From assembly GCA_001805445.1 (NCBI GenBank), contig MHGF01000023.1, positions 18,859 through 82,858 of the forward strand: 64,000 bases of DNA. Direction: 5' to 3'. Under the pieces are notes generated by a model, which saw only the letters and a program-made list of their open reading frames with translations, ran no database searches and was not told the origin of the DNA. The stretch's first letter is position 1, and the number at the start of each line of letters is the position of its first letter. Below, piece after piece: positions 21,486 to 43,226 of this stretch. Source of the stretch: Omnitrophica WOR_2 bacterium GWF2_43_52. GTDB taxonomy: Bacteria > Omnitrophota > Gorgyraeia > Gygaellales > UBA12090. A program made the translations under genes and the position numbers.

Positions 21486-21540
21486 GTAATACTAAGCATA
21501 CTTAGTACATATTAGTACGGACCAAGCAGGATGGCAGGGG

Positions 21541-21750
21541 ATGAAGGAAAAATTTTATTCGACAAAGGATGTGTTAAAGAGGGTTGCGATATCGCGCAAT
21601 ACCTTATTTTTGTGGTTTAAGCACCATAAAATCCCTGAGGCACGGCGCGACCGTAATGGCTACAGGATATTTACAAAAGAAGATATCAGCGCGATTTTGG
21701 CGTATAAGAATAAATTAGTGCTTCCAAAAAGGGCGTCATGGCAAAGATAA
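21541..21750 (+). CDS. Small (69 aa) MerR-type HTH DNA-binding protein
   Basis: YSTKDVLKRVAISRNTLFLWFKHHKIPEARRDRNGYRIFTKEDI matches the MerR N-terminal HTH pattern. It overlaps the pilN start. Confidence 0.6.
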   Translation: MKEKFYSTKDVLKRVAISRNTLFLWFKHHKIPEARRDRNGYRIFTKEDISAILAYKNKLVLPKRASWQR

Positions 21751-22924: not shown

Positions 22925-22937
22925 GGGGGCGGAATCA

Positions 22938-23378
22938 ATGGGAAAGATACTTGCCGCTGTAACGATTGCCATGGCAGCCTATGGCATGTATGTAACCACG
23001 AGTGCCGCGGAACTTCGCGATCCATTTATATCCATTATGGATCTTGAGAAGAAACAAATTGTAGAACAAAAAACTATAGACTTATCCAATGTCGCTCTCA
23101 AGGGAATAATTTGGAATGATGCTTTAGCAGTCGCGGTTATTAACGAAGAATTGATAATGGCCGGAGATACCTGGCGGGATTTTAAGGTTGAGAAGATTGA
23201 AAAAGACAGTGTCCTATTAAGTATCGAAGGCAAAGAATATACACTTTCTCTTGGTGAGGGGGAGAGCCCCGACAAAACAGCGGCCTCGGTACCGCAAACC
23301 CATCAATTATCCCTGCCGGAAGAAGAGCCTTTCACGCAGGGGATCCCCCAGACTGAAGGAGGAAACGAGTGGAGATAA
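22938..23378 (+). CDS. pilP: PilP-like pilus assembly protein
   Basis: ALKGIIWNDALAVAVIN…GDTW…KIEKDSVLLSIEGKEYTLSL fits the PilP beta-sandwich pattern. The ORF track starts at 22905. Confidence 0.5.
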   Translation: MGKILAAVTIAMAAYGMYVTTSAAELRDPFISIMDLEKKQIVEQKTIDLSNVALKGIIWNDALAVAVINEELIMAGDTWRDFKVEKIEKDSVLLSIEGKEYTLSLGEGESPDKTAASVPQTHQLSLPEEEPFTQGIPQTEGGNEWR

Positions 23379-24862: not shown

Positions 24863-24879
24863 AAGGGAGAAAAATTTCT

Positions 24880-26055: not shown

Positions 26056-26058
26056 ACA

Positions 26059-27087: not shown

Positions 27088-27429
27088 TGAGCACTGAAAA
27101 GTGGTAACTAATTAGCGGACGTATCAAGCAACCGCGGCCTTAATTTTTAAGACAGTAACAAGAATATCTTCCTTTCTATCATTTTCTTCTTTTCCTATCC
27201 AAAAATGCAGCGCATTGTTTAACCACAGAATAGTCATTCTCTGTAAAATGAGGGATAATACCATTTGATTTTTATCTATTTTGGTGCTATATATATATTT
27301 GTTTTATCAGCCTGCAAGAAGCGAGCTTTAACGCTTCTTACGCGGTAAACTTTGGTTCATTCGTAAATAATGTGGAGCACTTAGCGTAACTGTTTGATAA
27401 TAAAGGGGAATTGCTAAAATCACTAGCAA

Positions 27430-27705
27430 TAGCGAAACTAATAGTTTTTGCAGCGAATGGTTCGACTACGCTCACCATTCGTACTGAGCAAAGTCGAAGT
27501 ACGAATGATGATTTTAGGCAAAAAGTCCGAATAGTTTCGGGAATCCCGATGCTCTCTAAGTATCATCGGAGCAATATCGGGACGACGAGGATGTGTGAGC
27601 CCCGACGAGTCCGGCGGGGCGAGTTCCGCAGTCGCCGAAACTATGAGAGGCTTTTTGACGTGAAAAAATCGTCCTGAGCGAAAAAATTATTAGTTTTGCA
27701 AACCA
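27430..27705 (+). ncRNA. Highly structured ~275-bp intergenic element of unknown identity, bounded by imperfect direct repeats (ACTAATAGTTTTTGCA / ATTATTAGTTTTGCAA)
   Basis: It contains multiple nested stem-loops (CGAATGG…CCATTCG; GTACTGAGCAAAGTCGAAGTAC; CGGGAATCCCGATG…CATCGG; CCCCGACGAGTCCGGCGGGG). The ORF 27411-27677 across it is implausible. I found no other copy in the window. Confidence 0.3.
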
Positions 27706-27763
27706 CTACATCCACAAAATTCACGAAAGAACCTAAACTTTTAACAGGATTATACTGTTAGCA

Positions 27764-30700: not shown

Positions 30701-31843
30701 GCGGCAAGAAAACAGGCGGCATTAGCTTTATTAGAAGTATCGCTGGGTGAGCTTCAGGCGGAGAAAAGCGCCGCGCCTTTTATCGGCGGGCAGTTTCCCT
30801 GGGAGAATGTTTCACTTCCCGCGCGCCTGGAGACTCTTGCTAGCTTGCCGGATAACTATTACCCTGCTGAATTAGGAAAAATAAAATTATTATTGGAAGA
30901 GTTAACCTCGCATCAGAAGCCGGTGGAGTTGGAAAAATTTATATCGCACCTGCTTGCGAAAGTAGGCAAGTTTGACCCCTTGATCCGTAAGGACATTATT
31001 ATGGCGCTCTCTGGCGTAGTGAAAACATCGTTATGTAACGATACTATTGACAGCCTTAAAATGCAGGATAGGTTAGGAATTATATGGAAACTTTTAAAGG
31101 CTGAATCACAGCCAAGAGAATTCCGTGTTTTACTGGATATCCTTCGGGATGCCTGCAGGGAACTTGCTTCTCATTTGCAATTACTGGGTGATGTGGTTCT
31201 TGAAAGAGACAAGCCTGAAGTGAAGAAATATGTCGCGTTTATACGCCAGCTTTGTTTTTCCCTTGGAGAGGCAATGCAAAAAGAAAAAAACAGTGATTCG
31301 GAAATATGCAAGCTTGCCGCCGGATTTATAAAAGATATAGTGTATGGCAGGCTTTTAGAGGTTTTCGCCTATGCTGTTGTCAGTGCTTCTGGAGAAGAAA
31401 GAGCGAAGGTAAAGATACTCTTTCCTTTTATTTACGAGAAACTAGCGGATGCTGTGATCGCTTTTCATGCCTCCAAGGATATAAAGTTTGGAGATTCGTT
31501 TTCAGAGTACGCGATAATCAAGGGAAGCGCTGATGTTTTGCTGGAACTTGGGGAGCCGGCATTGCATAGGCTAAAGCAGAAATTATCCCAGGCACGCGAT
31601 GATATATCCGTATCACTCATTGAGTTAATCAAACACCTTAATAAAGAGGAATTAATAGAGCCGTTATCTTCACTGATTCACCACAAAAATCAGGTAATAC
31701 GCTATAAGGTGATTGTAGCTTTAGCCGCTATCGGAACCCAGAAGGCGCACGAAGTGCTTGTTGGGGCGCTCAAGGGAGAGAAAGATAAAAGGATGCGGTC
31801 GTTACTTAAAGACGAAGTGCGTAAGTTAAAGGCGAAAAGATAA
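27764..31843 (+). CDS. 1359-aa protein with GGDEF (AGDEF variant, intact RxxD I-site), AAA_16/STAND NTPase, a helical domain and C-terminal HEAT/ARM-like repeats
   Basis: The GGDEF domain spans residues ~15-185 (DLDGFKYVNDTYGH…RQTDMVIRYAGDEFTILLPG). Walker A is GDAGIGKSRLLTEL and Walker B is VVFSFDDLQWAD. The C-terminal ~300 aa hold PBS-lyase/HEAT-like repeats (…VIRYKVIVALAAIGTQKAHEVLVGAL). Confidence 0.8.
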   Translation: MEPSENIQRAAEKDIRFAEPTFIDPLTRLYNQYYLFQFLPEEIKKANLGNYSLAVFMIDLDGFKYVNDTYGHLCGDDVLKQMAEILKKSVRQTDMVIRYAGDEFTILLPGVDLARVEKLSGQLIENVAKNPFKGLEGESLNLTISMGFAMCPEDGTEVDRLIELADKALYLSKQRGKNRVSQAKEVTQEKVSSLIALDSFPCPAFIDRRKEIDTLANIFDTKVSQDNSLQMALISGDAGIGKSRLLTELNNYVHDKAVVIGCHASLTHKGNPYFLFAQGISNYIQKIGPRNPQLANLLANVPIEEVTELSRIIPLLAPLVGSSQEVSGEDKKARFLLFKGLLDFFIELTRHSAVVFSFDDLQWADKASIELLRYLSKQEKNRRIFIVCSLSGDSYGEAVRDNYFRPWQEELSLMDNVAVVKLSTLSSEDASKMVDAIFPGTGRDGEFCKSLYAATKGNPSFIEEVLKSLVENSVILYQDNRWMIKKELYNQGTSFSLEEIIKKRLKSLDEETKEMIVQAAVIGEDFSLDFLRKIDNRDEGFMLELLNRAKKMRLIDETEQKGKYGFINKNIQHMLYNELNEEERAQLHHKIANVLGQEHKDNLSQVAGEMAFHYTQAPGQEKSDEFRRTLLEKASELFSPVEIVEYLDNLSKKAPLAEEKVLPLTDEALIHEAVRFVRMLQNARKVFHLYPPGAMRINAVQEAFGLVEHILKSTAMVVISQSERRLLLNGEAVIIKEVDQASVESFLQLLLEYNIQSLSFKNGIIPEELNIFLDYASAPSEKIKEKGGWGAIFNKETMKSLKVNDARFAQPAGQEKESGKKDKLKDMMLMEFFLGKAGMGGIDKKTVISTIENEPQSFARTLQEAAKESLKEGKTKDEAKAVTESIEKIHSQIFGKQLQKASDPKALARIIIELEPGLRTRVIRLHLKEQSLKTPDTKDDMLYVLPEAIIVEALIVEYKESQGNLIVVKACFDKAFGNDAARKQAALALLEVSLGELQAEKSAAPFIGGQFPWENVSLPARLETLASLPDNYYPAELGKIKLLLEELTSHQKPVELEKFISHLLAKVGKFDPLIRKDIIMALSGVVKTSLCNDTIDSLKMQDRLGIIWKLLKAESQPREFRVLLDILRDACRELASHLQLLGDVVLERDKPEVKKYVAFIRQLCFSLGEAMQKEKNSDSEICKLAAGFIKDIVYGRLLEVFAYAVVSASGEERAKVKILFPFIYEKLADAVIAFHASKDIKFGDSFSEYAIIKGSADVLLELGEPALHRLKQKLSQARDDISVSLIELIKHLNKEELIEPLSSLIHHKNQVIRYKVIVALAAIGTQKAHEVLVGALKGEKDKRMRSLLKDEVRKLKAKR

Positions 31844-31846
31844 ACA

Positions 31847-32302
31847 ATGTCACCGCTCAGGCGTGTTAAGGCAAAAATCGGGGATTTGCTGCTACAGGAT
31901 GGCCTCATTACCGAGGCGCAGCTGCAGGAGGCCATTTCTTTGCAGAAGACTAATGCTAAAGACAAGACCTTGGGGCAAATTTTGTTAGAATTCGGGTATG
32001 TCAAGAAAGATGATTTATATACCGTTTTGGCTGTTCAAAGCGGCTATCCTTATCTTGCTATTCATCATTGCGTTGTCAATCCCAAGGTCTTAGCGCTTTT
32101 ACCGGAATCAGTAGTAAGAAAACATCAGGCGTTTCCTATTGATAAAATCCATGATATTTTTACCGTCGCCATGGTAAATCCTCTGGATAGGGCTGCTCTT
32201 GAGCAGATTGAAGATCTTGTTCAAAGCAGGGTGAGGGTTTTTTTAACAACGCCCGCGGATTTGGAAAAGGCGTTGAACCGCTACTATAGCGTAAAAACGT
32301 AG
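31847..32302 (+). CDS. Free-standing MshEN / T2SSE_N (PilB N1) domain protein; candidate c-di-GMP receptor
   Basis: KIGDLLLQDGLITEAQLQEAISLQ matches the 24-residue MshEN c-di-GMP-binding motif RLGxx(L/V/I)(L/V/I)xxG(L/V/I)(L/V/I)xxxx(L/V/I)xxx(L/V/I/F)xxQ. The rest is a GspE_N fold. It is in frame with the downstream ATPase but separated from it by TAG and TAA stops. Confidence 0.7.
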   Translation: MSPLRRVKAKIGDLLLQDGLITEAQLQEAISLQKTNAKDKTLGQILLEFGYVKKDDLYTVLAVQSGYPYLAIHHCVVNPKVLALLPESVVRKHQAFPIDKIHDIFTVAMVNPLDRAALEQIEDLVQSRVRVFLTTPADLEKALNRYYSVKT

Positions 32303-32359
32303 GGGGACGACATTTGTTTTTCGTCTCCTGCTTTATTATCATAACCTATAGATAAGCAC

Positions 32360-33592
32360 ATGCCGCCATCTGAAAAAAACGAAAAGCCGATACAAGAGCC
32401 AGCCATCCCCTCGGGTGTCATTGATGATAATCCTGTTGTGCTGGCGGTCAATAAGATTCTGGTTGAGGGAATAGAGAAAGGTTCAAGCGACATTTTGATC
32501 GAACCGTTAGATAATGAAGTGCAGGTGCGCTACCGGATTGACGGAATACTTCACAGGATGCATCTTTTTCCTAAAAGCTTTCAGGATGGAATCGTAGGCC
32601 GTATAAAGGTAATGTCCGGGCTGGATATCAGTGAGCACAGGCTTCCTCAGGACGGAAGGCTGAAAATGACGTATAGCTCTAAGGAGGTAGATTTACGGGT
32701 TTCTGTTCTGCCCGCGAGCCTGGGTGAAAAAGTAGTATTGAGAGTATTGGATAAATCAAGGACCGTGCTTGATATCAGTACCTTAGGATTTGACCAGCGC
32801 ACGCTTGAGCTGTTAAAGGTTAATTTAGTTAAGCCGGTAGGCATGATTTTGGTTTGTGGAGCAACAGGTTCCGGAAAGACGACAACACTCTATTCCGCGG
32901 TACAATACATTGATTCTATCGATAAGAATATCGTTACCGTTGAAGACCCCGTAGAATACCAATTGTACGGGATCAATCAAGTAGCGGTCTCTGAAGATAT
33001 AGGGCTGAATTTCGCCTCTGCCTTGCGCTCCATACTGCGCCAGGACCCCGATGTGGTGCTTGTGGGAGAAATAAGGGATTTTGAAGCTGCCGACATCGCT
33101 ATTAAGGCATCGTTAACCGGCCACCTGCTTTTAAGCACGCTCCACACCATTTCCGCGACCGGGTCTACGGTGCGTTTGATGAATATGGGCATAGAGCCGT
33201 TTCTCATTGCCTCGTCGTGCCTTTTAGTGGTAGCGCAGGTTTTAGCGCGCCTCTTGTGCCCTAAGTGTAAAGAGCCCTATCATCCGTCAAAAGAAGTAGC
33301 GGATGTTCTTCGGGCTTCTCATCTTAGCCTGGATGAACAAACAGTGTTGTATCGGAAGAAAGGCTGCAACGAGTGCAATCATGCCGGGTTTAAAGGAAGG
33401 ACGGTCGTTGCTGAAAGTTTAGAGATTACCGCTAGTATCAGAGATTTGATTATCGCGCGCGCGTCGGAACAAGATATCAGGAATGCCGCCTATAAAGAGG
33501 GGATGGTAAGTATCAGCGAGAATGGCTTTCAATTAGTATTGGAAGGGCTTACCACGATGGATGAGATTTTACGCGTAACCTCTCTTGAATGA
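32360..33592 (+). CDS. PilB/GspE-family secretion ATPase lacking the N1 domain (N2 domain, RecA-like ATPase and tetracysteine Zn motif)
   Basis: Walker A GATGSGKTTTLY, Asp and His boxes, and CPKC…CNEC. Confidence 0.85.
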   Translation: MPPSEKNEKPIQEPAIPSGVIDDNPVVLAVNKILVEGIEKGSSDILIEPLDNEVQVRYRIDGILHRMHLFPKSFQDGIVGRIKVMSGLDISEHRLPQDGRLKMTYSSKEVDLRVSVLPASLGEKVVLRVLDKSRTVLDISTLGFDQRTLELLKVNLVKPVGMILVCGATGSGKTTTLYSAVQYIDSIDKNIVTVEDPVEYQLYGINQVAVSEDIGLNFASALRSILRQDPDVVLVGEIRDFEAADIAIKASLTGHLLLSTLHTISATGSTVRLMNMGIEPFLIASSCLLVVAQVLARLLCPKCKEPYHPSKEVADVLRASHLSLDEQTVLYRKKGCNECNHAGFKGRTVVAESLEITASIRDLIIARASEQDIRNAAYKEGMVSISENGFQLVLEGLTTMDEILRVTSLE

Positions 33593-35285
33593 GGTAAAAC
33601 GTTACATCGCTATGGATACGAAGAATCAAAATAACTATTCCGGTGATAAAATAAAGGGGGATACTCCTTTGTCAGCCTCTGTCTCCTTGCGGCTTGAGGC
33701 TGATTCGCTGGAGGAACTGCAGCTAAAGAAAATACTTTCTTTTTGCGAAGACCTGGATATCCCGGTCATTAACCTAGCCAACTATAAAATTCCTCCTGAA
33801 TTGCTGCGCTTAATTTCCGAAGATTTGGCAAGGACGTACAAAATTATTCCTGTGGCCAAATATGGGAATATGCTTACCGTCGCTACCGCGGATCCGTTTG
33901 ATATTGTGGCTATAGATAATTTTAAGACGATAACAAAATTAGACATCCGTCTGGTCTTAAGCGCTCCCGCGCAGATAGCCAAGGCCTTAAATGACTACTA
34001 TAGCGCGCTCAATTTAGAAAAGGCTATGGATGAGAATCAAGTCCTGGTAGAAGAAACGCTTAAGGTTGAGGCAGTTGCCAATGACGCGATAAATATTGAA
34101 GAGATCGCGGAATTAAGCCAGCAGGTACAGATAGTTGAGATGGTTAATAGTATTTTAACCGATGGCCTGAAGCAGCGTGCCTCAGATATCCACATTGAGC
34201 CCTATGCCCAGAAGTTCCGGATACGGTATCGTATCGATGGTATTTTACAGGAGAGAAAGCTTGCCATAGAGAAGCAGTATGAATACGCGGTGATTGCCCG
34301 GCTTAAGATCATGTCACAACTGGATATTACGCAGCGCAGGCTTCCTCAAGACGGAAGGATTTCGATTAAAGTAGCCGATAAAGAAATTGACCTTCGGGTA
34401 TCGGTCTTGCCGCTGGCTACCGGTGAAAAGATAGTCATGAGAATCCTGGAAAAAGGCAATGTGCAGGTAAACCTGGAAAAATTAGGGTTTTCTGCTACCG
34501 CGCAAGAAGCGTTTAGAAGGGTTATTCACAGGCCTAACGGCATGATCCTCGTTACCGGCCCTACCGGAAGCGGAAAGTCTACCACACTCTACGCGATATT
34601 AAGCCTTTTAAATGTTCCGGAAAAAAACTTGATTACTGTCGAAGATCCTGTAGAATATCAAATGAAAGGGATAACGCAGGTTCATGTGCGTTCAGATATC
34701 GGTTTGACCTTTGCCAGCGTTTTAAGGGCGATTTTGAGGCAGACCCCTGATGTTGTTATGGTGGGTGAAATCCGCGATTTTGAAACCGTGGATATAGCAA
34801 TTAAAGCAGCGCTCACCGGCCACCTTATCTTAAGCACCCTGCATACCAATGACGCCCCCAGCACCATTGTGCGCCTTATCAATATAGGGGTAGAGCCGTT
34901 TTTAATTGCCTCAACGGTTAATCTTATTGCCGCGCAGAGGCTTTGCCGTAAGATCTGCCAGCAATGCAAAGAATCCTATACCTTGCCTCCCATGAACCTG
35001 AAAGGATTACCCGCTGAATATAAGGATAAAAAAGCGATTTTTTTCCGGGGCAAGGGTTGTCCGCGGTGTAACAATACCGGTTATTACGGACGGGTGGCAA
35101 TAATCGAGGCGCTGGTGATGGATGATGTTGTACGCCAGATGATTACGGATAAGGTGCCGATACCGAATATTGCCGAGTACGCCCGTAAGCATGGGATGAA
35201 GACCTTGCGGGAAGATGCCATCGATAAATGTTTGTTAGGCGAGATTTCTTTAGAGGAAGCTTTACGGGTAACCCCTGAAGGCTAA
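33585..35285 (+). CDS. pilB: Type IV pilus assembly ATPase PilB (full length, with N1 domain)
   Basis: GspE_N domain, Walker A GPTGSGKSTTLY, and CQQC…CPRC. 566 aa. Confidence 0.9.
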   Translation: MNEVKRYIAMDTKNQNNYSGDKIKGDTPLSASVSLRLEADSLEELQLKKILSFCEDLDIPVINLANYKIPPELLRLISEDLARTYKIIPVAKYGNMLTVATADPFDIVAIDNFKTITKLDIRLVLSAPAQIAKALNDYYSALNLEKAMDENQVLVEETLKVEAVANDAINIEEIAELSQQVQIVEMVNSILTDGLKQRASDIHIEPYAQKFRIRYRIDGILQERKLAIEKQYEYAVIARLKIMSQLDITQRRLPQDGRISIKVADKEIDLRVSVLPLATGEKIVMRILEKGNVQVNLEKLGFSATAQEAFRRVIHRPNGMILVTGPTGSGKSTTLYAILSLLNVPEKNLITVEDPVEYQMKGITQVHVRSDIGLTFASVLRAILRQTPDVVMVGEIRDFETVDIAIKAALTGHLILSTLHTNDAPSTIVRLINIGVEPFLIASTVNLIAAQRLCRKICQQCKESYTLPPMNLKGLPAEYKDKKAIFFRGKGCPRCNNTGYYGRVAIIEALVMDDVVRQMITDKVPIPNIAEYARKHGMKTLREDAIDKCLLGEISLEEALRVTPEG

Positions 35286-35300
35286 GCTCGTTACCACTGA

Positions 35301-35430
35301 GATACACGAATTCCCACGAATTGCACACTAATCATCACGAATACAGCGACGAAGTAATTCGTGTGTATTTGTGTGTAATTTGTGCCTATTCGTGCAAAAT
35401 AAAGGTTTTTCAGCAGTAACTAAACTATTA
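35301..35430 (+). repeat. Repeat family B, copy B1 (CACGAATTACACAC-type structured ~125-bp element)
   Basis: More than 90% identical to 43036-43165 (reverse complement) and 53213-53340. It has internal inverted repeats and ends in TTTTTCAGCAGTAACTAA. Confidence 0.7.
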
Positions 35431-35438
35431 GAGGGAAA

Positions 35439-36647
35439 ATGTCACTTTTTAGCTATACGGCAACCGATTATAGCGGGCAGAAGATAACCGGAAGAATGGA
35501 GGCAAAAGACAGGGCTGTCCTTATCAATAATTTGAGGAAGAATCAGTTGGTTATCATCGCGATAAGGGAGCTCAAAGAATCGGAGGTCCGCGCGCTTAAG
35601 AAAAGCGGCAGGGTAAAGCTGGATGACTTGACGGTATGCTTCAGGCAGTTAGCCGCCTTGGTGAAAGCGGGCATTCCGCTGGTAAAAAGCTTGAATATCC
35701 TTTTTGCCCAGGCCGAGAGCCCTTTTTTGAAAGAAATTCTTTCCTCATTACTAGCTAAAATAGAATCCGGCACAAGCCTTTCCGAGGCAATGAGCAGTTA
35801 TCCCCAGGTATTTTTATCTATGCATATCAATATGATTAGGGCAGGTGAAGTTAGCGGTGCGCTGGAAACGATTTTAGAGAGGCTTGCTCTTTACTTAGAG
35901 TCATCAAGTAAACTTAACCGCAAGGTGAAATCCGCGATGATGTATCCTGCCGTGGTTATCAGTGTCGCGCTTATGATTACCACGGGTATATTTATCTTCG
36001 TCATCCCTCAGTTCCAGGGCATGTTTGCCTCGTTAGGGGCAAATTTACCGCTTCCTACGCAGATTATGATTAACTTAAGCAATTTTCTTCGGCAGTACTT
36101 TGTTGCCCTTATTATTTGTGGTATACTTCTATGGGTAGCTTTACAAAAGGTTATGGCGAAGCCACAGGTTAGGGTAAGATGGGACAGGATAAAGCTGGAT
36201 TTACCTGTGGCGGGAAAACTAATCCGTAAGATTGTCGTCGCCCGTTTCGCGCGGACAACCTCCACCTTGCTTAAAAGCGGAGTGACTATTCTTTCGGCCC
36301 TCGATATCGGCAGTAAGACCACGGAAAATAGGACTATTGAAATAACCTTGGCGAAAGTAATCAACAGAGTCAGTAAGGGAGAGAGAATTGGGGAGTCATT
36401 GGCAGAAAATAAGGTCTTTTCGCCCATGGTAGTCAGTCTTATCGCGGTAGGTGAGGAAACCGGAGACCTTGGCTCTATGCTGGATAAGATTGCCAGTTTT
36501 TATGAAGATGAGGTTGATACCGCCATTAGCGGGCTTACCTCTTTGCTTGAGCCGTTTATCATTGTCTTTTTAGGAGGCATGATCGGCACTATTGTGCTGT
36601 CGTTATTTTTGCCTATTTTTAAAATTACCCAATATGTGGGAAGGTAA
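35439..36647 (+). CDS. pilC: Type IV pilus inner-membrane platform protein PilC (GspF family)
   Basis: Two GspF repeats, three TM segments, about 400 aa. Confidence 0.9.
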   Translation: MSLFSYTATDYSGQKITGRMEAKDRAVLINNLRKNQLVIIAIRELKESEVRALKKSGRVKLDDLTVCFRQLAALVKAGIPLVKSLNILFAQAESPFLKEILSSLLAKIESGTSLSEAMSSYPQVFLSMHINMIRAGEVSGALETILERLALYLESSSKLNRKVKSAMMYPAVVISVALMITTGIFIFVIPQFQGMFASLGANLPLPTQIMINLSNFLRQYFVALIICGILLWVALQKVMAKPQVRVRWDRIKLDLPVAGKLIRKIVVARFARTTSTLLKSGVTILSALDIGSKTTENRTIEITLAKVINRVSKGERIGESLAENKVFSPMVVSLIAVGEETGDLGSMLDKIASFYEDEVDTAISGLTSLLEPFIIVFLGGMIGTIVLSLFLPIFKITQYVGR

Positions 36648-36651: not shown

Positions 36652-37149
36652 ATGAACACGATGATAGGAAAGCAGAATACGGTAAGAAGGCAAAAGGCTG
36701 TTACCCTTATTGAGCTTTTAATTTCGCTTTTTATCGGGGTTGTGGTAATTGGCGCCTTGCTGGGGTTGGTTAATTATACCTCCGAATTGCAGGAAACATC
36801 GCGCAATAAAATGATTGCCTTAAACGACGCCCGGCAGGTTATTGAGCAGATAAAATATGCTGCCGATACCAGTTTTGATAATGCGATCAGCCAGTACAGC
36901 GCTGCCGCGAATCAGACGTTTACTCCCGCGGGATTAGACGCTAGAGGAAGGATTATCTTAAATAACGTAGCCGGAGGCGGCGGTGACCTTTATGATGTGA
37001 TGGTTCTTGTCTGCTGGAGGCAGCGAAGAAACAGGATAATCGGCGAGTGTGTAAATAGTGGCGGGGTGCTGCAATTTAGCGATTTGGATGGAGATGGAAA
37101 CCTTGAATCGCCTTGCTCGCTCACTACAGCTATCAGGAGGACGAATTAA
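36652..37149 (+). CDS. Pseudopilin / minor pilin (class III signal …QKAVTLIELLISLFIGVVV)
   Basis: Prepilin-like N-terminus with Glu at +5 and Ala at -1. RBS AAGGAG lies upstream. The ORF track starts at 36592. Confidence 0.6.
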   Translation: MNTMIGKQNTVRRQKAVTLIELLISLFIGVVVIGALLGLVNYTSELQETSRNKMIALNDARQVIEQIKYAADTSFDNAISQYSAAANQTFTPAGLDARGRIILNNVAGGGGDLYDVMVLVCWRQRRNRIIGECVNSGGVLQFSDLDGDGNLESPCSLTTAIRRTN

Positions 37150-37152: not shown

Positions 37153-37725
37153 ATGAAAAAAGGATACAGCCTTTTGGAAGTCTTAATCGTGGCAGGCTTG
37201 ATTGTTGTGGTAACAGCTTTGCTATTGAATATGTCAAATACTTTTAATTTAAGCTGGGATGTCCAAAATGTCAAGATGGAATTAGACCAGCAGGCACGCC
37301 GCGGCATAGACGAGATGATAAGAGATTTATATGAGGCTACGTCTACTTCTGGTCAAACCACGGTTACTGCTAATAGCGTTAATTTCAGAGTCCCGGTAGT
37401 GGTTGATGACAATTTTCCTAATCCTCCGGATATTTATGACGCCAGCGGCAATATTTATTGGGGGGCAGACGGAGTAGTCGGCAATAATATTAGCTACCGC
37501 GTCAATTCAGGCCAGTTAGTAAGAGAAGTGATAAGCGGAACGAGTATAATCAGCAGCCGTGTCTACGCTAATAATGTTACAAACTTAGCTTTCACCCAGC
37601 AGCCTCCTAGCCCGCAGTTTCCCAGAGCTATAGCGATAAATATTACTTGCCAGAAGCCGGTGCGCAGGGGGTCTCTTACCCTGGCTAATTCCACTATGCA
37701 GTCACAGGTTACTCTGAGAAATTAA
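37153..37725 (+). CDS. Pseudopilin / minor pilin (MKKGYSLLEVLIVAGLIVVV)
   Basis: Canonical G at -1, Y at +1, and E at +5. Confidence 0.7.
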   Translation: MKKGYSLLEVLIVAGLIVVVTALLLNMSNTFNLSWDVQNVKMELDQQARRGIDEMIRDLYEATSTSGQTTVTANSVNFRVPVVVDDNFPNPPDIYDASGNIYWGADGVVGNNISYRVNSGQLVREVISGTSIISSRVYANNVTNLAFTQQPPSPQFPRAIAINITCQKPVRRGSLTLANSTMQSQVTLRN

Positions 37726-37936
37726 CCCATGGCAACCTTGAAAAGTTACACACTCTATGATATACTATAAGTAGTAATTTAGAAAGAGACCTATTGTTAA
37801 AGGCAAATCCGCCGTAAGGCGGAGACGCAAAGCCAATGAGCCCGCCAACGATATGTGGCGAGGTAGTCAGGTTGCCAAAGGGTAATAAGTTTTAAGAATC
37901 CTGCAGGCATTCTGCGGGATTTTTTTATGGAGTATT

Positions 37937-37985
37937 CAATGCCAGGCATAAACAAAGGTTTTTTCATCTGACTATGCCTGGCATT
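37937..37985. repeat. Back-to-back ATGCCAGGCAT terminal repeats (CAATGCCAGGCATAAACAAA-GGTTTT-TTCATCTGACTATGCCTGGCATTG): apparent solo or empty carrier element
   Basis: Both end types seen at 17693-17872 are here directly adjacent with nothing between them. Confidence 0.55.
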
Positions 37986-38012: not shown

Positions 38013-40457
38013 ATGGATTCCTACAAAAATAAAAATAACAAAGGTGTGGCATTAATTATGGCTTTGGGGGTTTCCAGTGTTTTGCTTACCTTGAGTATGG
38101 CCTATGTGGGCGGGGCTATACAGGAGAGTAATCTCAGCCAGCGTTATCAGGATTCTATGACTGCGCTTTATGAGGCAGAGCGGGGGTTAGCCTATGCCTT
38201 CGGTGAGGCGCAAAATGCGGGGTATGACTGGTTTACCCATGATGTAGATAGCAATGATGCCAATAGGAATGGCGATACCACGGAATTCATAAGGCCAGCC
38301 AACTCTCCTGGAGTAACATTAGGAGATGTTAGGGATAATCAGGGAATAGTAATCAATAGTGCAGGTAATTACCAGATACCCTTAGGAGGGGCTTCTCTTA
38401 TTCAGGTGCGCAGTTACACCAATCCTAATGATACAAACCAGATGTTTCTTATGGCTCAAGCTACCGTAGGCTCTGCCAGCCGTACCTTAAAGACCAAGAT
38501 TATCCGCAGGCCGCTATTCAAATATTTTTATTACTATCCTGGGTGGAAATATTTTGAAGGCAGTGATTTTGACGGAGAAGGAATAGGCGGTGTCTATGTC
38601 AAAGATGGTATAACCTTACGCAATGTAAATTTTAAAAACATAACTGAATTAGCCACCGGTCCTAACGGATATATCGTAGCGGCAAGTGATCAATATACCT
38701 CTCCTAAAGGAGTAGATTGGTTCATAGGGGGGATTAACGGAAAAGCGCCTTTACCCTCTAAGTATGACAGCAGTGGGCAACTTGTTTGGGATGACGGATA
38801 TAACGGCAATAACCCTTGGGGGCAGTGGAGGTGGCCGCCTCAGTACTCCTTTCCGTGGGACTGGAGGCGCGTCTATGACCATTTTTTTAATCCAGGAACG
38901 GTTAACAAGGTTACTCTCCCTACTAAGGATGATGCAGTGAATAATTTATGGCCAGAGTGGCAGTGGAATAAATATCCGCAGAGTGATAATTCCGAAGTAC
39001 CGGTACAGTTTTGTAACCCTTGCGGGGAGCGCGATATTAACGGAGATGGAGTGAAGGATACAGTCTATGCCACTCCCCAGTATTGGGCGGCGTTTTCAGA
39101 AGCAAGATGCGGTGCGGGGAAAACAAATAACGAGTGCGGCCTCATTGACCCGGATTTCTGGAGGGATAAGATTTATGACCGCCAGACTCCGACCGAAATG
39201 GTAAGGTATCTTCATACCAAAAAGCAGGCAGGGGCATGGCAGGGGTGGGTTAATAGCGCTACCATTCCTTTAGGACAAGACCAGTATAACGAAGGCCAGC
39301 CTTTGTCTTCAGTGGTAAAAGAGGGACAAACCGGCGGCTATGATATTGAAATGCCTAAGATTGATCAAAACTATGCCGGGCTGGCGAAAAAGGACGGCCT
39401 CTATATCGGTGAGGATGGGGTGTATCTTAACGGAAGCCCGGACTCTTTGCCATCCTGCATAAGAGATAATGTAGAATTTTTTAATACGCTCCGTCCGCAG
39501 GATAGAAACGGGGATGGCACCCTTGACCCGGAAAATGTCTTAGAGATTAATATTGAGCAATGCCGGACGACAAGGGAGGTGCCGAATAACGGCATTATCT
39601 ATGTTGCCCACAAGAATCTCCGGTTAACCAATGCCAAACAAATGCCGGATAATGGCCTGACAGTGGCCTCTCCTTATAATATCTATATAAAGGGTAATTA
39701 TAACTATGATCCTTCCAATGACCCGGATACGAATGATCGCAACTGGCGCCCGTCTGCGGTTATCAGCAATAGTTATGTCTATATTCTTTCCGGCAACTTT
39801 ACCGACCCTCAGGCTCTGCCTGATTACGTCGTTCCCCGTGAATATCCGTATGAAACAACCAGGATTGCTAGTAACATTGATTATAATAATGCAACCCAAA
39901 GAGCGACTTTGCAAAATAAGGTACAAACTTATTTTGGGTTACCTAATTTTACTATGGCAGGAGTGAACAGCAAAACTGGGCTGGAGAGTAAGATTCGCAG
40001 CCAGCATGCAAGCGAATGTAGCAATACCATGCCTAATATAGCCAGCCCTACTACGGTAAGAAGCGCTATTGTGTCTCCCAAAGATATGACTGGGGTAAGC
40101 TGGGATGAAAACAAGTTTTATCAGCTGGAGCGCTGGCCTACCAATCCGGTGCTAAGAGGCGCGTTTATTCTTTTGGGAGAAAGCTGGGTAAAGGATAACG
40201 AGGGTAATGATATACAGGATATCCCTATTTATGGTTATGACTGGCAAGGCGTTCCTATTAATACCCCCCGGAGTGTACGCAGAGGCACAGGCGGCAGTGC
40301 GACTATTGACAAGGGAGAGGATGTAATGTGGATCAATACGCCGGGCTCCAAGTTAAAATACGAATACTTGTTTGACACTGATACTATGCCTCCCGGGAAT
40401 CTTGCCGGTGGCACGGAAGCCGGCTGGCAGGAGGTTAGCGATTTCAATCATTCCTAG
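38013..40457 (+). CDS. Giant (~815 aa) PilX_N-domain minor-pilin-like protein, paralog 1; candidate pilus-tip adhesin
   Basis: The N-terminus NKGVALIMALGVSSVLLTLSMAYVGGAIQESNLSQRYQDSMTALYEAERG matches the PilX N-terminal domain. The body is rich in N/Y/W/G/D. The C-terminus …AGWQEVSDFNHS is shared with paralog 2. The ORF track starts at 37974. Confidence 0.65.
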   Translation: MDSYKNKNNKGVALIMALGVSSVLLTLSMAYVGGAIQESNLSQRYQDSMTALYEAERGLAYAFGEAQNAGYDWFTHDVDSNDANRNGDTTEFIRPANSPGVTLGDVRDNQGIVINSAGNYQIPLGGASLIQVRSYTNPNDTNQMFLMAQATVGSASRTLKTKIIRRPLFKYFYYYPGWKYFEGSDFDGEGIGGVYVKDGITLRNVNFKNITELATGPNGYIVAASDQYTSPKGVDWFIGGINGKAPLPSKYDSSGQLVWDDGYNGNNPWGQWRWPPQYSFPWDWRRVYDHFFNPGTVNKVTLPTKDDAVNNLWPEWQWNKYPQSDNSEVPVQFCNPCGERDINGDGVKDTVYATPQYWAAFSEARCGAGKTNNECGLIDPDFWRDKIYDRQTPTEMVRYLHTKKQAGAWQGWVNSATIPLGQDQYNEGQPLSSVVKEGQTGGYDIEMPKIDQNYAGLAKKDGLYIGEDGVYLNGSPDSLPSCIRDNVEFFNTLRPQDRNGDGTLDPENVLEINIEQCRTTREVPNNGIIYVAHKNLRLTNAKQMPDNGLTVASPYNIYIKGNYNYDPSNDPDTNDRNWRPSAVISNSYVYILSGNFTDPQALPDYVVPREYPYETTRIASNIDYNNATQRATLQNKVQTYFGLPNFTMAGVNSKTGLESKIRSQHASECSNTMPNIASPTTVRSAIVSPKDMTGVSWDENKFYQLERWPTNPVLRGAFILLGESWVKDNEGNDIQDIPIYGYDWQGVPINTPRSVRRGTGGSATIDKGEDVMWINTPGSKLKYEYLFDTDTMPPGNLAGGTEAGWQEVSDFNHS

Positions 40458-40480
40458 AGCAAAAGCTCATTAAAGAAAGG

Positions 40481-42892
40481 ATGGGTACTATGTCTTCCTA
40501 CAAAAATAAAAATAATAAAGGCGTGGCATTGATTCTGGCGCTGGGGGTTTCCAGTGTTTTGCTTACCCTGGGCATGGCCTATGTGGGCGGAGCAATACAG
40601 GAGAGCAATCTCAGCCAGCGCTATCAGGATTCCATGGCTAGTTTATACGAGGCAGAGCGGGGAGTTCAGTATGCGGTACTTGAGGCCAGGAATTCCGGAT
40701 GGCAGTTTTTAACCCATAATGTTAATCCTGATAGGACATTGGCTCGGCAAACCGGCCCGGCCCTTATCCCGATAATCATCAGTGACGCGCAAAGGACCGT
40801 TGGTTTCGAAGCTGACGGAGATTATAGTATTGTGAGCCCTGCCTCAAGGATAGAAGTAAGGACGTATATTGACGCTGTACTAGATCCGCAGGATATCTTT
40901 GTTTTAGCCCGCAGCACCTCTTTGGCTACGAGCACCCAGAAAATAATCAAACTGCGCGTAGGTGCCAACTCGCTGTATCAGTATCAAATGTTTACTCCGG
41001 GAAGCATGGAATTGCGCTCAATTGACGGCAGAGGTATAGGCATGATACATGCTAATGGAAATATCCAGTGGCAGACGAATGGAAATGCCCGAAATTTGGA
41101 GAGTGTTGACTGCGCTGGCTTTATGCGCTATAGTTACAGTTACCGTGTCCCTGCATACCTCTTAGACGGTTTAGACGGAATTATGGATGGGAACGCCCCC
41201 TTGCCAAATGGGTCTTCTACTTACAGGGAGTGGAACCTTAACGATTATAATACGTGGTATAGCGGCTTAACTGCTGCTCAACAAACTCAGGCTGTAGCTC
41301 CTCCTACAGTACCGTATAATACTCCCTCTAATGTCAATAATTTCCCCTGGCTAAAATTAAACTGGTGGTATAATAGCAACCAAAATTACAGCTGGCACCC
41401 GTCATGGGCTTCAATACAAGGTGATTTTGCCTCTGCTTCACTTCAGCAGAATTCCGGCGTATCGTATAACTGGAACGAAGCGGTGGATACTTCAAATTCA
41501 GGCGGGTTAAGCCCCCATTATAATTGGAGTTTTGGTTCAGTTGCCAGTTACCCTATATTCTATAATACACTGGGCAGTAATTTTGATACCTATAATGGCA
41601 TCGGTAATTATGATTATACAAATTTTCGCAATCAAAGTGTCGATAACAGTAGAGTTGATTCATTATTTGGCTCCGGTATGCGTATCAATGGCGTTCAAAT
41701 CCCCTTTAGGTTAACAGGAGGCGACTCCTACCAATTTGACCCCTTTTATAAAGATCCTGTGGTAGACGCTCCGCGTACTGTCAGGTACGCGAACACAGAA
41801 CTACTGCCTAATAATTGGAGTACTTTTTCAAATGGGGCAACTATCCCGAATAATTTTATGGGAGATCCGCAGCCGCACGCGCTCGAGCCTTTAAGCGCGA
41901 TACTCAAAGATAGAAATAACGGAGGCAAGTATATTGACCCGGTTCCTGTTGATTCGGCTTATTTTAGCTCTTTGGCGGCGACAGGCGGGATAGTGATTCG
42001 CTGCGATGGCACTATTACTAATCGCGCGGATATCCCCTTGGGAGTTATCAGTACTTCCAGTTTTATCAATCATATTCATCCTTCCCTGGTGGGTGGGGTT
42101 CCGCAGCCAGACCAGGTAGTCAATGTTGATATAGGAACACTCAAGAATTGGGCAGCGGCTAATAACTTTAACGGGGTAATCTATTTTGATGGAAGCTCTT
42201 GCAGCGGCAGCAGCGGCATCCGCCTGAAGAATGCTAAAGAACTACCCGACCAGACAGCCACTAACACCAGCGGCGGCCTTAGCGTTTATTCCACGCGCCA
42301 GGTATATCTGCAGGGCGATTTTAATTATGACAGCACCAGGAGTGATTCATATAACGAGGATATCTGGCAGCCGGGAAGTGTGATTGCCACCAGCAGGGTG
42401 TATTATCTTTCTGATGGTTTTAGTGACCCGCAAACCTTGCCCACGCTGGTGCATAATAGGAATTGGCCTCAGATTACTGATGCTCCTAGCGCATTAATGT
42501 ATTGGACTAATAATGTGGGAAACATGCCTAATGAGGCAGCCCCTGAAGCAGGGAGCCAGAGTACCGTTACCTATCGCGCGTCTATTGTTTCTACAGATAG
42601 TTTATGGCAGGATAATATCCTTGAGCGCTGGAGAAACGGGCGAACCGGCCCGGATTATAGGCGCAGGATTATTGGCGCTCAGGTAGCGATAAATGGAACC
42701 AATAATGTTGTTTCTTCTTGGAATCGCGGGCGTTCCTGGGGAGGCCCCGCGCCTTTTCTTACCAGTTCTTATGATGGGGGCGCAACAACTTTTGAATATG
42801 ACCCTATGTTATTACAGCGAACCCCCCCGGGTGATTTCCTAGCTGGTTTTGAGGCTTCATGGCAGGAGGTGTCTGACTTTGATAACGCGTGA
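40481..42892 (+). CDS. Giant (803 aa) PilX_N-domain minor-pilin-like protein, paralog 2
   Basis: The first ~75 aa are about 85% identical to paralog 1 (about 88% at the DNA level over ~170 bp), with a divergent core and a conserved C-terminal …ASWQEVSDFDNA. Confidence 0.65.
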   Translation: MGTMSSYKNKNNKGVALILALGVSSVLLTLGMAYVGGAIQESNLSQRYQDSMASLYEAERGVQYAVLEARNSGWQFLTHNVNPDRTLARQTGPALIPIIISDAQRTVGFEADGDYSIVSPASRIEVRTYIDAVLDPQDIFVLARSTSLATSTQKIIKLRVGANSLYQYQMFTPGSMELRSIDGRGIGMIHANGNIQWQTNGNARNLESVDCAGFMRYSYSYRVPAYLLDGLDGIMDGNAPLPNGSSTYREWNLNDYNTWYSGLTAAQQTQAVAPPTVPYNTPSNVNNFPWLKLNWWYNSNQNYSWHPSWASIQGDFASASLQQNSGVSYNWNEAVDTSNSGGLSPHYNWSFGSVASYPIFYNTLGSNFDTYNGIGNYDYTNFRNQSVDNSRVDSLFGSGMRINGVQIPFRLTGGDSYQFDPFYKDPVVDAPRTVRYANTELLPNNWSTFSNGATIPNNFMGDPQPHALEPLSAILKDRNNGGKYIDPVPVDSAYFSSLAATGGIVIRCDGTITNRADIPLGVISTSSFINHIHPSLVGGVPQPDQVVNVDIGTLKNWAAANNFNGVIYFDGSSCSGSSGIRLKNAKELPDQTATNTSGGLSVYSTRQVYLQGDFNYDSTRSDSYNEDIWQPGSVIATSRVYYLSDGFSDPQTLPTLVHNRNWPQITDAPSALMYWTNNVGNMPNEAAPEAGSQSTVTYRASIVSTDSLWQDNILERWRNGRTGPDYRRRIIGAQVAINGTNNVVSSWNRGRSWGGPAPFLTSSYDGGATTFEYDPMLLQRTPPGDFLAGFEASWQEVSDFDNA

Positions 42893-42898: not shown

Positions 42899-43226
42899 TA
42901 ATGCCAGGCATACACAAGCAGTGCTCTGTCAAATTATATTTTAACTGCAGCTCTTTAGCTGATTAGCTAATGAGCTAAACAGCCGATGAATTCATTAGCT
43001 TGAACTAACGAACCTGCGAACTATTAACAATTAAGTTAGTTACTGCTGAAAAACCTTTATTTTGCACGAATAGGCACAAATTACACACAAATACACACGA
43101 ATTACTTCGCCGCTGTATTCGTGATGATTAGTGTGTAATTCGTGGGAATTCGTGTTTAAAAGACGTTTATTCAGTGATAACTAAGTTAACAACAAATAGT
43201 ATACAAGTTGTCTATGCCTGGCATTT
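42899..43226. mobile_element. Composite MITE: ATGCCAGGCAT-type terminal repeats enclosing a degenerate family-C fragment (42945-43035, minus) and family-B copy B2 (43036-43165, minus)
   Basis: Left end AATGCCAGGCATACACAAGC, right end GTTGTCTATGCCTGGCATTT. The interior matches the C and B elements at 53.1-53.4 kb. Confidence 0.6.

What the first reader, a model, noticed from the sequence alone, without database searches (positions are those of the whole stretch)
38013..42892. Tandem ~800-aa PilX_N-domain paralogs with conserved ends and divergent cores
Both proteins start with a near-identical PilX-type hydrophobic N-domain (about 85% aa, about 88% nt identity) and end with …EYxxDxxxxPPGxxAG…WQEVSDF. 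Their central 600 aa are N/Y/W/G/D-rich beta-type sequence that has diverged strongly. The size is several-fold larger than typical PilX proteins (~200 aa). The pattern suggests pilus-tip adhesins under diversifying selection, with conserved ends for pilus incorporation and for recombination between copies. Carrier-MITE ends flank the pair on both sides (37937-37985 and 42899-43226).
Basis: partly seen in the sequence, partly recalled or inferred. Interest (0 to 1): 0.65.

Follow-up and report, generated by a model that had tools for sequence, protein, structure and literature searches.

The report
Paired giant pilus-tip pilins behind riboswitch
Two neighbouring ~800-residue genes in an Omnitrophota pilus cluster most likely encode oversized "cap" subunits for the tip of a type IV pilus (same predicted build as the Thermus tip pilin ComZ), and they sit behind a c-di-GMP riboswitch; they are old paralogs, not a fast-diversifying cassette system.

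Summary
Gene A (38013-40457) and gene B (40490-42892) are full-length paralogs. Their first ~50 residues are 91-92% identical (87.5% nt over 168 nt). They share a C-terminal PPG..WQEVSDF motif and have N/Y/W/G-rich cores. 13-nt inverted-repeat elements flank the pair.

Pfam PilX_N does not recognise either protein. However, both have a prepilin-type leader without Glu5. AlphaFold models (pLDDT 86 and 74) show a 60-residue pilin helix, a four-strand sheet, a ~620-residue beta-rich insert and a final strand. For each model, the only significant PDB fold match is the tip pilin ComZ.

The paralogs are ancient: each has closer orthologs elsewhere than its neighbour. No silent copies exist in the window. 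Only the 5' ~55 codons show gene conversion, from B-type into A. The C-terminal motif is conserved at protein level only.

Verdict: a new, unannotated family of a known kind, of moderate interest.

The parts
38013..40457 (+). Gene A. An 814-aa ComZ/PilX-like giant minor pilin with leader MDSYKNKNNKG|VALIM (no Glu5), alpha1 at residues 9-68, a sheet at 120-167, a beta-rich insert at ~170-790 and a last strand at 798-808.
   Evidence: ORF. NCBI protein P0001 is 100% identical. The AF2 model has pLDDT 85.6 and pTM 0.85. Foldseek against the PDB finds only ComZ 6QVI, E 1.9e-7.
40490..42892 (+). Gene B. An 800-aa paralog with leader MSSYKNKNNKG|VALIL, the same layout as A, and a low-confidence S/N/W-rich stretch at residues 240-426.
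   Evidence: P0004. The AF2 model has pLDDT 74.1. Foldseek against the PDB finds only ComZ, E 1.3e-6.
38018..38185 (+). Gene-conversion tract at the 5' end of A. Its partner in B is 40495-40662.
   Evidence: The tracts are 87.5% identical at nucleotide level. Identical codons at identical residues: 35/48 here against 74/201 in the rest, p=8e-6. A against the B-type ortholog L003 gives 33/47 vs 76/213. A against its own ortholog L002 gives 14/41 vs 145/306.
37738..37766 (+). Sigma-70-like promoter, TTGAAA-17-(TG)TATACT, in front of the riboswitch.
   Evidence: 10/12 matches, extended -10. Similar TTGAAA...TATACT/TATATT sites lie upstream of the aptamers in L001 and L002 (read by eye).
37793..37880 (+). 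c-di-GMP-I class riboswitch aptamer. The best-scoring Rfam model is RF03167, the GGC variant.
   Evidence: 64.7 bits against a gathering score of 59, E 5e-13, with the full model matched. An aptamer sits at the same position in L001 (61.6 bits) and L002 (RF01051, 45.5 bits).
37894..37931 (+). Intrinsic-terminator-like hairpin (13 bp, loop GCAUU) followed by a U-run. This is the presumed expression platform.
   Evidence: Folds. Equivalent hairpin-plus-U-run structures follow the aptamers in L001 and L002.
37938..37985 (.). 48-bp palindromic element with 13-16-nt terminal inverted repeats, inside the leader of gene A, just before the SD sequence GGAGG (38002-38006).
   Evidence: It forms a 16-bp hairpin in the leader fold.
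42900..43225 (.). 326-bp element with the same 13-nt terminal inverted repeats, starting 8 nt after the stop codon of B.
36655..37149 (+). Minor pseudopilin 1 (…QKA|VTLIELL, Glu5 present).
   Evidence: Pfam N_methyl E 3.4e-6. Weak NCBIfam hits to ComGE, HpsC, PilV and GspI.
37153..37725 (+). Minor pseudopilin 2 (MKKG|YSLLEVL, Glu5 present).
   Evidence: The order small pilin, small pilin, large family member recurs in L001, L002, L009, L011 and L012; L010 shows one small upstream gene.
31847..36647 (+). Stand-alone MshEN protein, a GspE/PilB-type ATPase, an MshEN-GspE/PilB ATPase, and the PilC/GspF platform protein.
18133..31843 (.). The rest of the pilus/c-di-GMP cluster: pilin (18133-18846, - strand), CHASE2-GGDEF-HD-GYP (18948-21398), PilN, PilO, secretin, TPR protein, PilM, and GGDEF-AAA_16-HEAT (27764-31843).

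Best explanation
A and B are two paralogous 'cap' minor pilins of a type IV filament machine. Each is made with a short prepilin-type leader (…KNNKG|VALI…). Like GspK and PilX, each lacks the Glu5 that lets a further subunit dock above it, so it can only sit at the distal end of the filament.

The protein is a pilin fold: a long N-terminal helix, four antiparallel strands and one last strand. A ~620-residue beta-rich (solenoid-like) module is inserted into it before the last strand, as in the Thermus tip pilin ComZ. This explains the 'conserved ends, divergent core' pattern. The two ends are the parts of one small pilin domain that must fit the two upstream minor pilins and the fibre core. The bulky insert is the exposed business end. 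I infer that it is an adhesin or plug for attachment to surfaces or host cells.

The two genes form their own transcription unit: promoter-like site, c-di-GMP-I aptamer, terminator hairpin, then A and B separated by 32 nt. Tip production is therefore gated by c-di-GMP separately from the machine. The machine itself carries MshEN c-di-GMP receptor domains and sits beside GGDEF and HD-GYP enzymes.

The first ~55 codons of A were overwritten by B-type sequence (gene conversion). This keeps the docking helix of both caps nearly identical, so either cap fits the same partners. I infer that they are alternative tips.

What is shown: paralogy, leader features, predicted fold, the ComZ match, synteny, the riboswitch, and the conversion signature. 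What is inferred: tip location, adhesin role, alternative use of A and B, and the direction of the switch.
For: Leader and Glu5:
- G(-1) followed by V/I-A/V-L-I, with a hydrophobic residue at +5, in every family member examined.
- The same register appears in weak alignments to geopilin and to E. coli GspK.

Fold:
- AF2 of A has pLDDT 85.6 and pTM 0.85, with H9-68, strands at 120-167 and a final strand at 798-808.
- B has the same layout.
- Among 350,542 PDB chains, only ComZ 6QVI is significant, for both models (E 1.9e-7 and 1.3e-6, prob 1.0).
[quoted passage not shown] It was argued to be tip-only (PMC6561018).
- Cyanobacterial PilX proteins have the same build and have been proposed as tip plugs (bioRxiv 10.64898/2026.02.12.705559).

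Family and context:
- The family has 658 representatives at E<=1e-3.
- 2 of 55 members weakly hit PilX_N.
- Genes sit right after two small N_methyl pilins inside PilMNOQ / PilB / PilC clusters in 6+ loci.

Riboswitch. Promoter-like site and terminator.

Gene conversion.

Old paralogy.

c-di-GMP proteins in the cluster.
Against: - The Pfam PilX_N, N_methyl and T2SSK models and all NCBIfam models miss A and B.
- hhalign against GspK gives only 22.7% probability, over the leader only.
- There is no sequence-level hit to ComZ or to any PDB chain.
- The Foldseek TM-scores to ComZ are low (0.15-0.29) and rmsd is ~20 A, so the match is in local structure and topology, not a clean superposition.
- I could not read the model coordinates. 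That the last strand pairs with the N-terminal sheet is inferred from the order of secondary-structure elements and from ComZ.
- Both ATPases are of the assembly type and no PilT lies in the cluster, so a non-retractile, T2SS-like pseudopilus is possible.
- Two Glu5-less caps per machine is unusual, and how they share a tip is unknown.
- The riboswitch direction is unresolved.
Confidence: 0.62

Rival explanations
1. These are competence-pilus DNA receptors. A and/or B bind extracellular DNA at the pilus tip, as proposed for ComZ, rather than acting as adhesins.
For: ComZ is the only solved structure that matches either model, and ComZ binds dsDNA (PMC6561018). The core of A has 4.8% Lys.
Against: There is no sequence homology to ComZ. 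The core of B is very poor in Lys (1.1%) and in charged residues generally. No competence genes were seen among the ORFs read in the window, though I did not search for them specifically. The literature on this phylum favours pili for attachment to hosts (PMC10066038).
Confidence: 0.12
2. These are GspK-like tips of a short, non-retractile T2SS-type pseudopilus that pushes cargo through the secretin. The big insert would contact cargo or the secretin, not the outside world.
For: Both ATPases score about equally on the GspE and PilB models, and no PilT is present. PilC scores best as GspF. The 237-aa pilin scores best, though weakly, on GspG. The leader motif [KR]GVAL[IL] is the same as in E. 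coli GspK.
Against: The alignment complex is PilM_2/PilN/PilO rather than GspL/M. There are no T2SSK domains. An ~800-aa cap with a ~620-aa insert is hard to fit in a periplasmic pseudopilus. ComZ and the cyanobacterial PilX proteins belong to true pili.
Confidence: 0.13
3. This is the first reader's model: a diversifying adhesin cassette system in which the conserved ends serve recombination between expressed and silent copies (pilE/pilS-like antigenic variation).
For: The 5' ends carry a real conversion signature. Repeat elements flank the pair. The region around residues 214-430 is indel-rich and is poorly modelled in B.
Against: There are only two copies, both full-length with their own start sites, and no fragments elsewhere in the 64 kb. 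A and B lie in separate deep clades, each with orthologs. Divergence outside the 5' tract is at synonymous saturation and is roughly even. The 3' motif shows no nucleotide-level conservation. Conversion homogenises the constant helix rather than shuffling the cores.
Confidence: 0.05
4. These are not filament subunits at all. They would be membrane-anchored or secreted beta-helix surface proteins that merely carry a pilin-like signal anchor.
For: No pilin HMM recognises them. The Foldseek TM-scores are low.
Against: The position directly after two minor pilins is conserved across many loci. The 60-residue alpha1 helix plus sheet is predicted with pLDDT above 90. The leader has G(-1). The sole fold match is a pilin.
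Confidence: 0.08

Closest known systems
ComZ of Thermus thermophilus (PDB 6QVI), a competence-pilus tip pilin
   Same: ComZ is the only significant PDB fold match for both models. Like A and B it is an atypical pilin missed by pilin predictors, and it is encoded next to small minor pilins. It is a pilin fold with a large beta-rich insert placed before the last strand, which matches the order of elements in the models.
   Different: There is no detectable sequence similarity. A and B are ~50% longer, with an insert of ~620 residues against ~380. They occur as two paralogs per locus and sit behind a riboswitch. DNA binding is untested. The superposition is poor (TM 0.15-0.29).
Cyanobacterial PilX proteins with a beta-solenoid (PilX-EPS/HpsA-like and PilX-Com)
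   Same: These are Glu5-less cap pilins carrying a bulky solenoid. They come in several paralogs per genome, pair with particular small minor pilins, and have been proposed to replace PilY1 as a tip plug or adhesin. The first upstream pseudopilin here weakly hits HpsC.
   Different: The phylum is different. No NCBIfam or Pfam model links the two groups. I did not compare structures directly.
GspK (T2SS) and PilX (T4aP) cap pseudopilins; Pfam PilX_N and T2SSK
   Same: The leader is [KR]G|VAL[IL] with no Glu5, the gene comes last in the minor-pilin set, and the role is to cap the filament.
   Different: PilX_N and T2SSK do not hit A or B. Only 2 of 55 relatives hit PilX_N weakly. GspK's insert is alpha-helical and sits at a different position in the sheet.
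c-di-GMP-I (GEMM-I) riboswitches upstream of pilus and motility genes
   Same: The aptamer scores above Rfam's gathering threshold, a terminator hairpin follows it, and pilus genes lie downstream.
   Different: Here the aptamer sits inside a pilus cluster and isolates only the tip genes. The best-scoring model is the GGC variant, although the window RNA has A where that model's consensus has G (GACGCAAAGCC). I could not obtain the paper that describes the variant.
PilY1/PilC tip adhesins
   Same: They have a comparable size and the same presumed job at the pilus tip. Gene A has three DxNxDG calcium-loop-like motifs; that these resemble the PilY1 calcium site is from my own knowledge.
   Different: PilY1 is not a pilin and has a beta-propeller. 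No such Pfam or fold hit was found here.

Membership tests
GspK/PilX-class cap minor pilin | Prepilin-type leader ending in Gly(-1), followed by a hydrophobic alpha1N segment | tested here: met
   …KNNKG|VALIMALGVSSVLLTL… in A and B. The same pattern is present in all 14 family members inspected. The register agrees with weak alignments to geopilin and to GspK.
GspK/PilX-class cap minor pilin | No Glu at mature position 5 | tested here: met
   Position +5 is Met in A and Leu in B, and is non-acidic in all members checked. The two upstream small pilins do have Glu5.
GspK/PilX-class cap minor pilin | Match to Pfam PilX_N (PF14341) or T2SSK | tested here: not met
   There were no hits for the full proteins at E<=1 or for the 78-aa N-termini at E<=10. 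Only 2 of 55 relatives hit PilX_N, best E 2.5e-4. hhalign against E. coli GspK gives 22.7% probability.
GspK/PilX-class cap minor pilin | Gene placed with the other minor pilins of a type IV filament cluster | tested here: met
   In the window the order is PilC, two N_methyl pilins, A, B. The same order is seen in L001, L009, L011 and L012.
GspK/PilX-class cap minor pilin | Cleaved by the prepilin peptidase and found at the filament tip | not testable with these tools
   This needs biochemistry or imaging.
ComZ-like solenoid-bearing tip pilin | Fold similarity to ComZ (6QVI) | tested here: met
   Foldseek E is 1.9e-7 for A and 1.3e-6 for B, prob 1.0, and the next hit has E>0.7. Caveat: TM-scores are 0.15-0.29. 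These are predicted models only.
ComZ-like solenoid-bearing tip pilin | [quoted passage not shown] | tested here: inconclusive
   The order of elements fits: helix, four strands (120-167), ~620 residues, last strand (798-808). I could not read the coordinates to confirm strand pairing.
ComZ-like solenoid-bearing tip pilin | Sequence homology to ComZ | tested here: not met
   Profile searches of PDB sequences with A2 and A3 found nothing significant.
PilY1/PilC tip adhesin | C-terminal beta-propeller (Pfam Neisseria_PilC) and absence of a pilin N-terminus | tested here: not met
   There is no Pfam hit and no PilY1 structure among the fold matches. A pilin-type helix is present.
c-di-GMP-I riboswitch (Rfam clan CL00126) | Covariance-model score above the curated threshold | tested here: met
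   RF03167 scores 64.7 bits against 59, with the model matched end to end. Orthologous positions score 61.6 bits in L001 and 45.5 bits (RF01051) in L002.
c-di-GMP-I riboswitch (Rfam clan CL00126) | Expression platform linking the aptamer to the downstream gene | tested here: inconclusive
   A terminator hairpin plus U-run follows the aptamer in all three loci. No clear, conserved anti-terminator was found, so ON versus OFF is unresolved.
c-di-GMP-I riboswitch (Rfam clan CL00126) | Binds c-di-GMP | not testable with these tools
   This needs in-line probing or ITC.
Antigenic-variation cassette system (pilE/pilS type) | Silent partial copies that donate variable segments to an expressed gene | tested here: not met
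   hmmsearch, tblastn and blastn of the window find only A and B. The rest of the genome was not available.
MITE-like element | Short non-coding element with terminal inverted repeats, present in several copies | tested here: met
   There are three copies with identical 13-nt ends. Copies 1 and 2 share ~25 nt at each end in opposite orientation.
MITE-like element | Target-site duplication and a cognate transposase | tested here: inconclusive
   No clear duplication is visible at the ends. No transposase was looked for. The motif is absent from the 15 other loci held at that point.

The most novel reading that the evidence does not exclude
A single pilus machine in an ultra-small, probably host-attached bacterium carries two interchangeable giant tip adhesins. 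Gene conversion keeps their docking helix identical, while their ~620-residue exposed modules have diverged to about 30% identity. A c-di-GMP riboswitch decides, independently of pilus assembly, whether the pilus is armed with these tips. That would be a second-messenger switch of tip identity or host attachment.
Probability: 0.2. Interest if true: 0.6.

Novelty: new member of a known kind. Interest (0 to 1): 0.42.

Why it matters
Omnitrophota are uncultured nanobacteria. Type IV pili are the main proposed means by which they attach to hosts or prey (PMC10066038), but the part of the pilus that would touch the partner has not been named.

These genes are annotated only as 'hypothetical protein'. 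They belong to a sizeable family with no Pfam model (658 cluster representatives), and they are the obvious candidates for that contact. The riboswitch gives a simple, testable handle on when they are made.

The case also adds a third lineage, after Thermus ComZ and cyanobacterial PilX, in which the cap pilin itself carries a big beta module in place of a PilY1-type adhesin. It is also a clean example of gene conversion confined to the helix that must fit shared partners.

Tried and rejected
- Pfam and NCBIfam scans of the full proteins and of the isolated N-termini gave no hits.
- Profile searches of PDB sequences with A2, A3 and the L001 DUF4900 protein found nothing significant.
- hhalign of the mini-pilin profile against E. 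coli GspK aligned the leader only, at 22.7% probability.
- A word-indexed search with the 55-sequence profile added almost nothing. Cluster look-ups returned no names or taxa.
- Pattern-based locus scans of genomes and metagenomes returned only 5 and 3 loci, mostly shorter PilX-like proteins.
- I could not obtain the paper that defines the GGC riboswitch variant.
- Folding the leaders gave no convincing anti-terminator shared by the three loci. Two weak and opposite hints were found: GCC..AGGGU pairing with the terminator 5' arm, and 37790-37802 pairing with 37993-38006 across the SD. I therefore do not commit to ON or OFF.
- dN/dS between A and B was not attempted. Synonymous sites are saturated, with codon identity of 0.37 at identical residues.
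- The PilY1/propeller idea was rejected.
Full report
**What is there**

The window comes from Omnitrophica WOR_2 bacterium GWF2_43_52. The two proteins are identical to NCBI 'hypothetical proteins' A2Y00_07750 (814 aa) and A2Y00_07755 (800 aa). Gene A runs 38013-40457 and gene B 40490-42892. They are 32 nt apart on the + strand.

BLASTP aligns them end to end at 29% identity, E 2e-71. The first 50 residues are 46/50 identical. The 5' ends are 87.5% identical in DNA over 168 nt, whereas the 3' ends give no blastn hit. Both proteins end in PPG…WQEVSDF.

The cores are enriched in N, Y, W and G relative to housekeeping genes of the window. The 13-mer AATGCCAGGCATA occurs six times as three inverted pairs, where 0.13 matches are expected. 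Two of the pairs bracket the gene pair.

**Context**

The pair closes a type IV filament cluster. In order, the cluster holds:
- a pilin (18133-18846, - strand)
- a CHASE2-GGDEF-HD-GYP protein
- PilN and PilO
- a secretin
- a TPR protein
- PilM
- a 1359-aa GGDEF-AAA_16-HEAT protein
- a stand-alone MshEN protein
- two GspE/PilB-type ATPases, one of them carrying MshEN
- PilC/GspF
- two small N_methyl pseudopilins
- A and B

. A ParE toxin gene, rpsO and pnp follow.

**Family**

Word-indexed search found only five relatives. An exhaustive profile search found 658 cluster representatives at E<=1e-3 and 130 at E<=1e-30, mostly 750-1100 aa.

None of the 10 clusters looked up carries a name. No Pfam family hits A or B. 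Only 2 of 55 members touch PilX_N, best E 2.5e-4.

In nine loci the large gene follows two small pilin-like genes inside PilM/N/O/secretin/ATPase/PilC clusters. Two large paralogs per locus occur in the window, L001, L009 and L011.

**What the proteins are**

All members inspected have a short basic leader ending in Gly. It is followed by V/I-A/V-L-I and a hydrophobic stretch, with a non-acidic residue at +5. This is the GspK/PilX pattern. E. coli GspK reads …QRG|VALLIV.

AlphaFold2 with a 55-sequence alignment gives a confident model of A (pLDDT 85.6, pTM 0.85). It has a 60-residue helix (9-68), four antiparallel strands (120-167), a ~620-residue beta-rich region and a final 11-residue strand (798-808). 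That final strand is the WQEVSDF motif. B gives the same layout, with pLDDT 74.1 and a poorly modelled stretch at 240-426.

Against 350,542 PDB chains, the only significant Foldseek match for either model is ComZ of Thermus thermophilus (E 1.9e-7 and 1.3e-6, probability 1.0). The next hits have E>0.7.

[quoted passage not shown] Its bulk was argued to restrict it to the pilus tip (PMC6561018). Cyanobacterial PilX proteins share this build and have been proposed as tip plugs that replace PilY1 (bioRxiv 10.64898/2026.02.12.705559).

Caveats:
- TM-scores to ComZ are low (0.15-0.29).
- There is no sequence-level link to ComZ or to any PDB chain.
- I could not inspect the coordinates, so the pairing of the last strand with the N-terminal sheet is inferred from topology.

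On this reading the 'conserved ends' are the two halves of one small pilin domain, and the 'divergent core' is the inserted module.

**Diversification or old paralogs?**

In a neighbour-joining tree, A groups with P0002 (49% identity) and several others at about 40%. B groups with P0005 (57%). A and B are only 35% identical. The L001 pair (62% identical) is a separate duplication inside the A clade. No further copies or fragments exist in the window. Identity per 50-residue window outside the N-terminus is fairly even, at 11-23. So the duplication is old, and there is no cassette system in view.

**Gene conversion at the 5' end**

At identical, degenerate residues I counted how often the codon is also identical, in the first 56 codons and in the rest of the gene (similar):

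| Comparison | First 56 codons | Rest of gene | Fisher p |
|---|---|---|---|
| A vs B | 35/48 | 74/201 | 8e-6 |
| A vs its ortholog L002 | 14/41 | 145/306 | n.s. |
| A vs B-type ortholog L003 | 33/47 | 76/213 | 1.8e-5 |
| B vs L003 | 29/49 | 196/371 | n.s. |
| L001 pair | 39/47 | 223/399 | 2.6e-4 |

Two other pairs show no excess similarity at the N-terminus: the L009 pair by this codon test (22/39 vs 312/559, p=1) and the L011 pair by amino-acid identity (44% N-terminus vs 43% rest).

The simplest reading is that the 5' ~55 codons of A were replaced by B-type sequence. The effect is to homogenise the docking helix, not to diversify the cores. At the C-terminal motif only 2/12 codons are identical, which indicates protein-level constraint only.

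**The riboswitch**

Rfam finds a full-length c-di-GMP-I-class aptamer at 37793-37880 (RF03167, 64.7 bits against a gathering score of 59). It lies in the 287-nt gap between the second small pilin and gene A.

The leader elements, in order, are:
- a promoter-like TTGAAA-17-TGnTATACT at 37738-37766
- the aptamer at 37793-37880
- a 13-bp hairpin plus U-run at 37894-37931
- the 48-bp palindromic element at 37938-37985
- the SD sequence GGAGG at 38002-38006

The same promoter-aptamer-terminator-gene order is present in L001 (61.6 bits) and L002 (RF01051, 45.5 bits). More distant loci, where the large gene abuts the small pilins, lack it.

Other c-di-GMP-I aptamers precede PilX-like or pseudopilin operons in L001 (second operon) and L016.

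The window RNA has the canonical GACGCAAAGCC where the GGC model's consensus has G. I could not obtain the paper that defines the variant.

The direction of control is unresolved. The terminator forms by default in all folds, and the two alternative pairings I found point in opposite directions.

**Mechanism proposed**

A and B are Glu5-less cap pilins with an exposed beta-rich module. They are made from their own c-di-GMP-gated transcript and mounted on the two small minor pilins at the tip of the filament. I infer that they are alternative tips, because both lack Glu5 and share a converted docking helix. I also infer that they mediate attachment, in line with the proposed host-associated lifestyle of the phylum (PMC10066038).

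The rivals are listed with their weights in the rival explanations: a DNA receptor, a T2SS-like pseudopilus tip, cassette variation, and a non-pilin surface protein.

**Novelty**

The kind is known: ComZ, solenoid-bearing PilX, and GEMM riboswitches on pilus genes. This family, its presence in Omnitrophota, the paired caps with a converted helix, and the riboswitch that isolates only the tip genes have not been described in the literature I could search. I rate it a new member of a known kind, of moderate interest.

Noticed in passing
It is conserved in L001 (7518-7593) and L002 (1211-1334).
   Followed up: yes
window 17694-17870, 37938-37985, 42900-43225: There are three elements with identical 13-nt terminal inverted repeats (AATGCCAGGCATA). 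The 48-bp copy looks like an 'empty' version of the 177-bp copy: about 25 nt are shared at each end, in opposite orientation. The 326-bp copy has an unrelated interior. The 48-bp copy forms a 16-bp hairpin in the leader of gene A. The motif is absent from the 15 other loci held at that point.
   Followed up: partly
window 31847-33592 and 33585-35285: Both cluster ATPases are of the GspE/PilB assembly type. One has an N-terminal MshEN domain. The other lacks it but is preceded by a stand-alone 151-aa MshEN protein, which looks like a split gene. The same split is seen in L001. No PilT-type ATPase is in the cluster.
   Followed up: partly
window 18948-21398 and 27764-31843: Two large c-di-GMP-related proteins lie in the pilus cluster: CHASE2-GGDEF(weak)-HD-GYP, and GGDEF(motif AGDEF)-AAA_16-HEAT (1359 aa). 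The latter is syntenic in L001 and L011.
   Followed up: partly
gene A residues 82-91, 341-349, 497-505 (window ~38256, ~39033, ~39501): Gene A has three DxNxDG-type calcium-loop-like motifs and gene B has none. A similar DxDGDG loop recurs after the TH motif, at about residues 70-110, in several family members (P0006-P0009, P0017, P0023).
   Followed up: partly
L001 19750-22237 (-): A second minor-pilin operon with a 434-aa DUF4900 protein has an N-terminal 200 residues that match this family's profile (E 1e-15). It is preceded by its own c-di-GMP-I riboswitch (22156-22237). L016 shows a similar riboswitch about 1 kb upstream of a 397-aa PilX-like gene.
   Followed up: partly
window ~43319-43795 (+): A ParE-family toxin (43532-43795, Pfam E 2.4e-12), with a small upstream ORF that looks like its antitoxin, lies immediately after the 326-bp repeat element.
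   Followed up: no
window 14265-16013 (+), about residues 222-262: The arginyl-tRNA synthetase-like ORF carries an odd repetitive charged insert (…RDEGRGTRDEGPWTRDEERETRDDGRETIGERRWTIDD…).
   Followed up: no
window versus L001: The PilN-PilO-secretin-TPR-PilM block lies upstream of the GGDEF/ATPase genes in the window, but downstream of the large-pilin pair in L001. This is a rearrangement whose breakpoint in the window coincides with the 326-bp repeat element.
   Followed up: no
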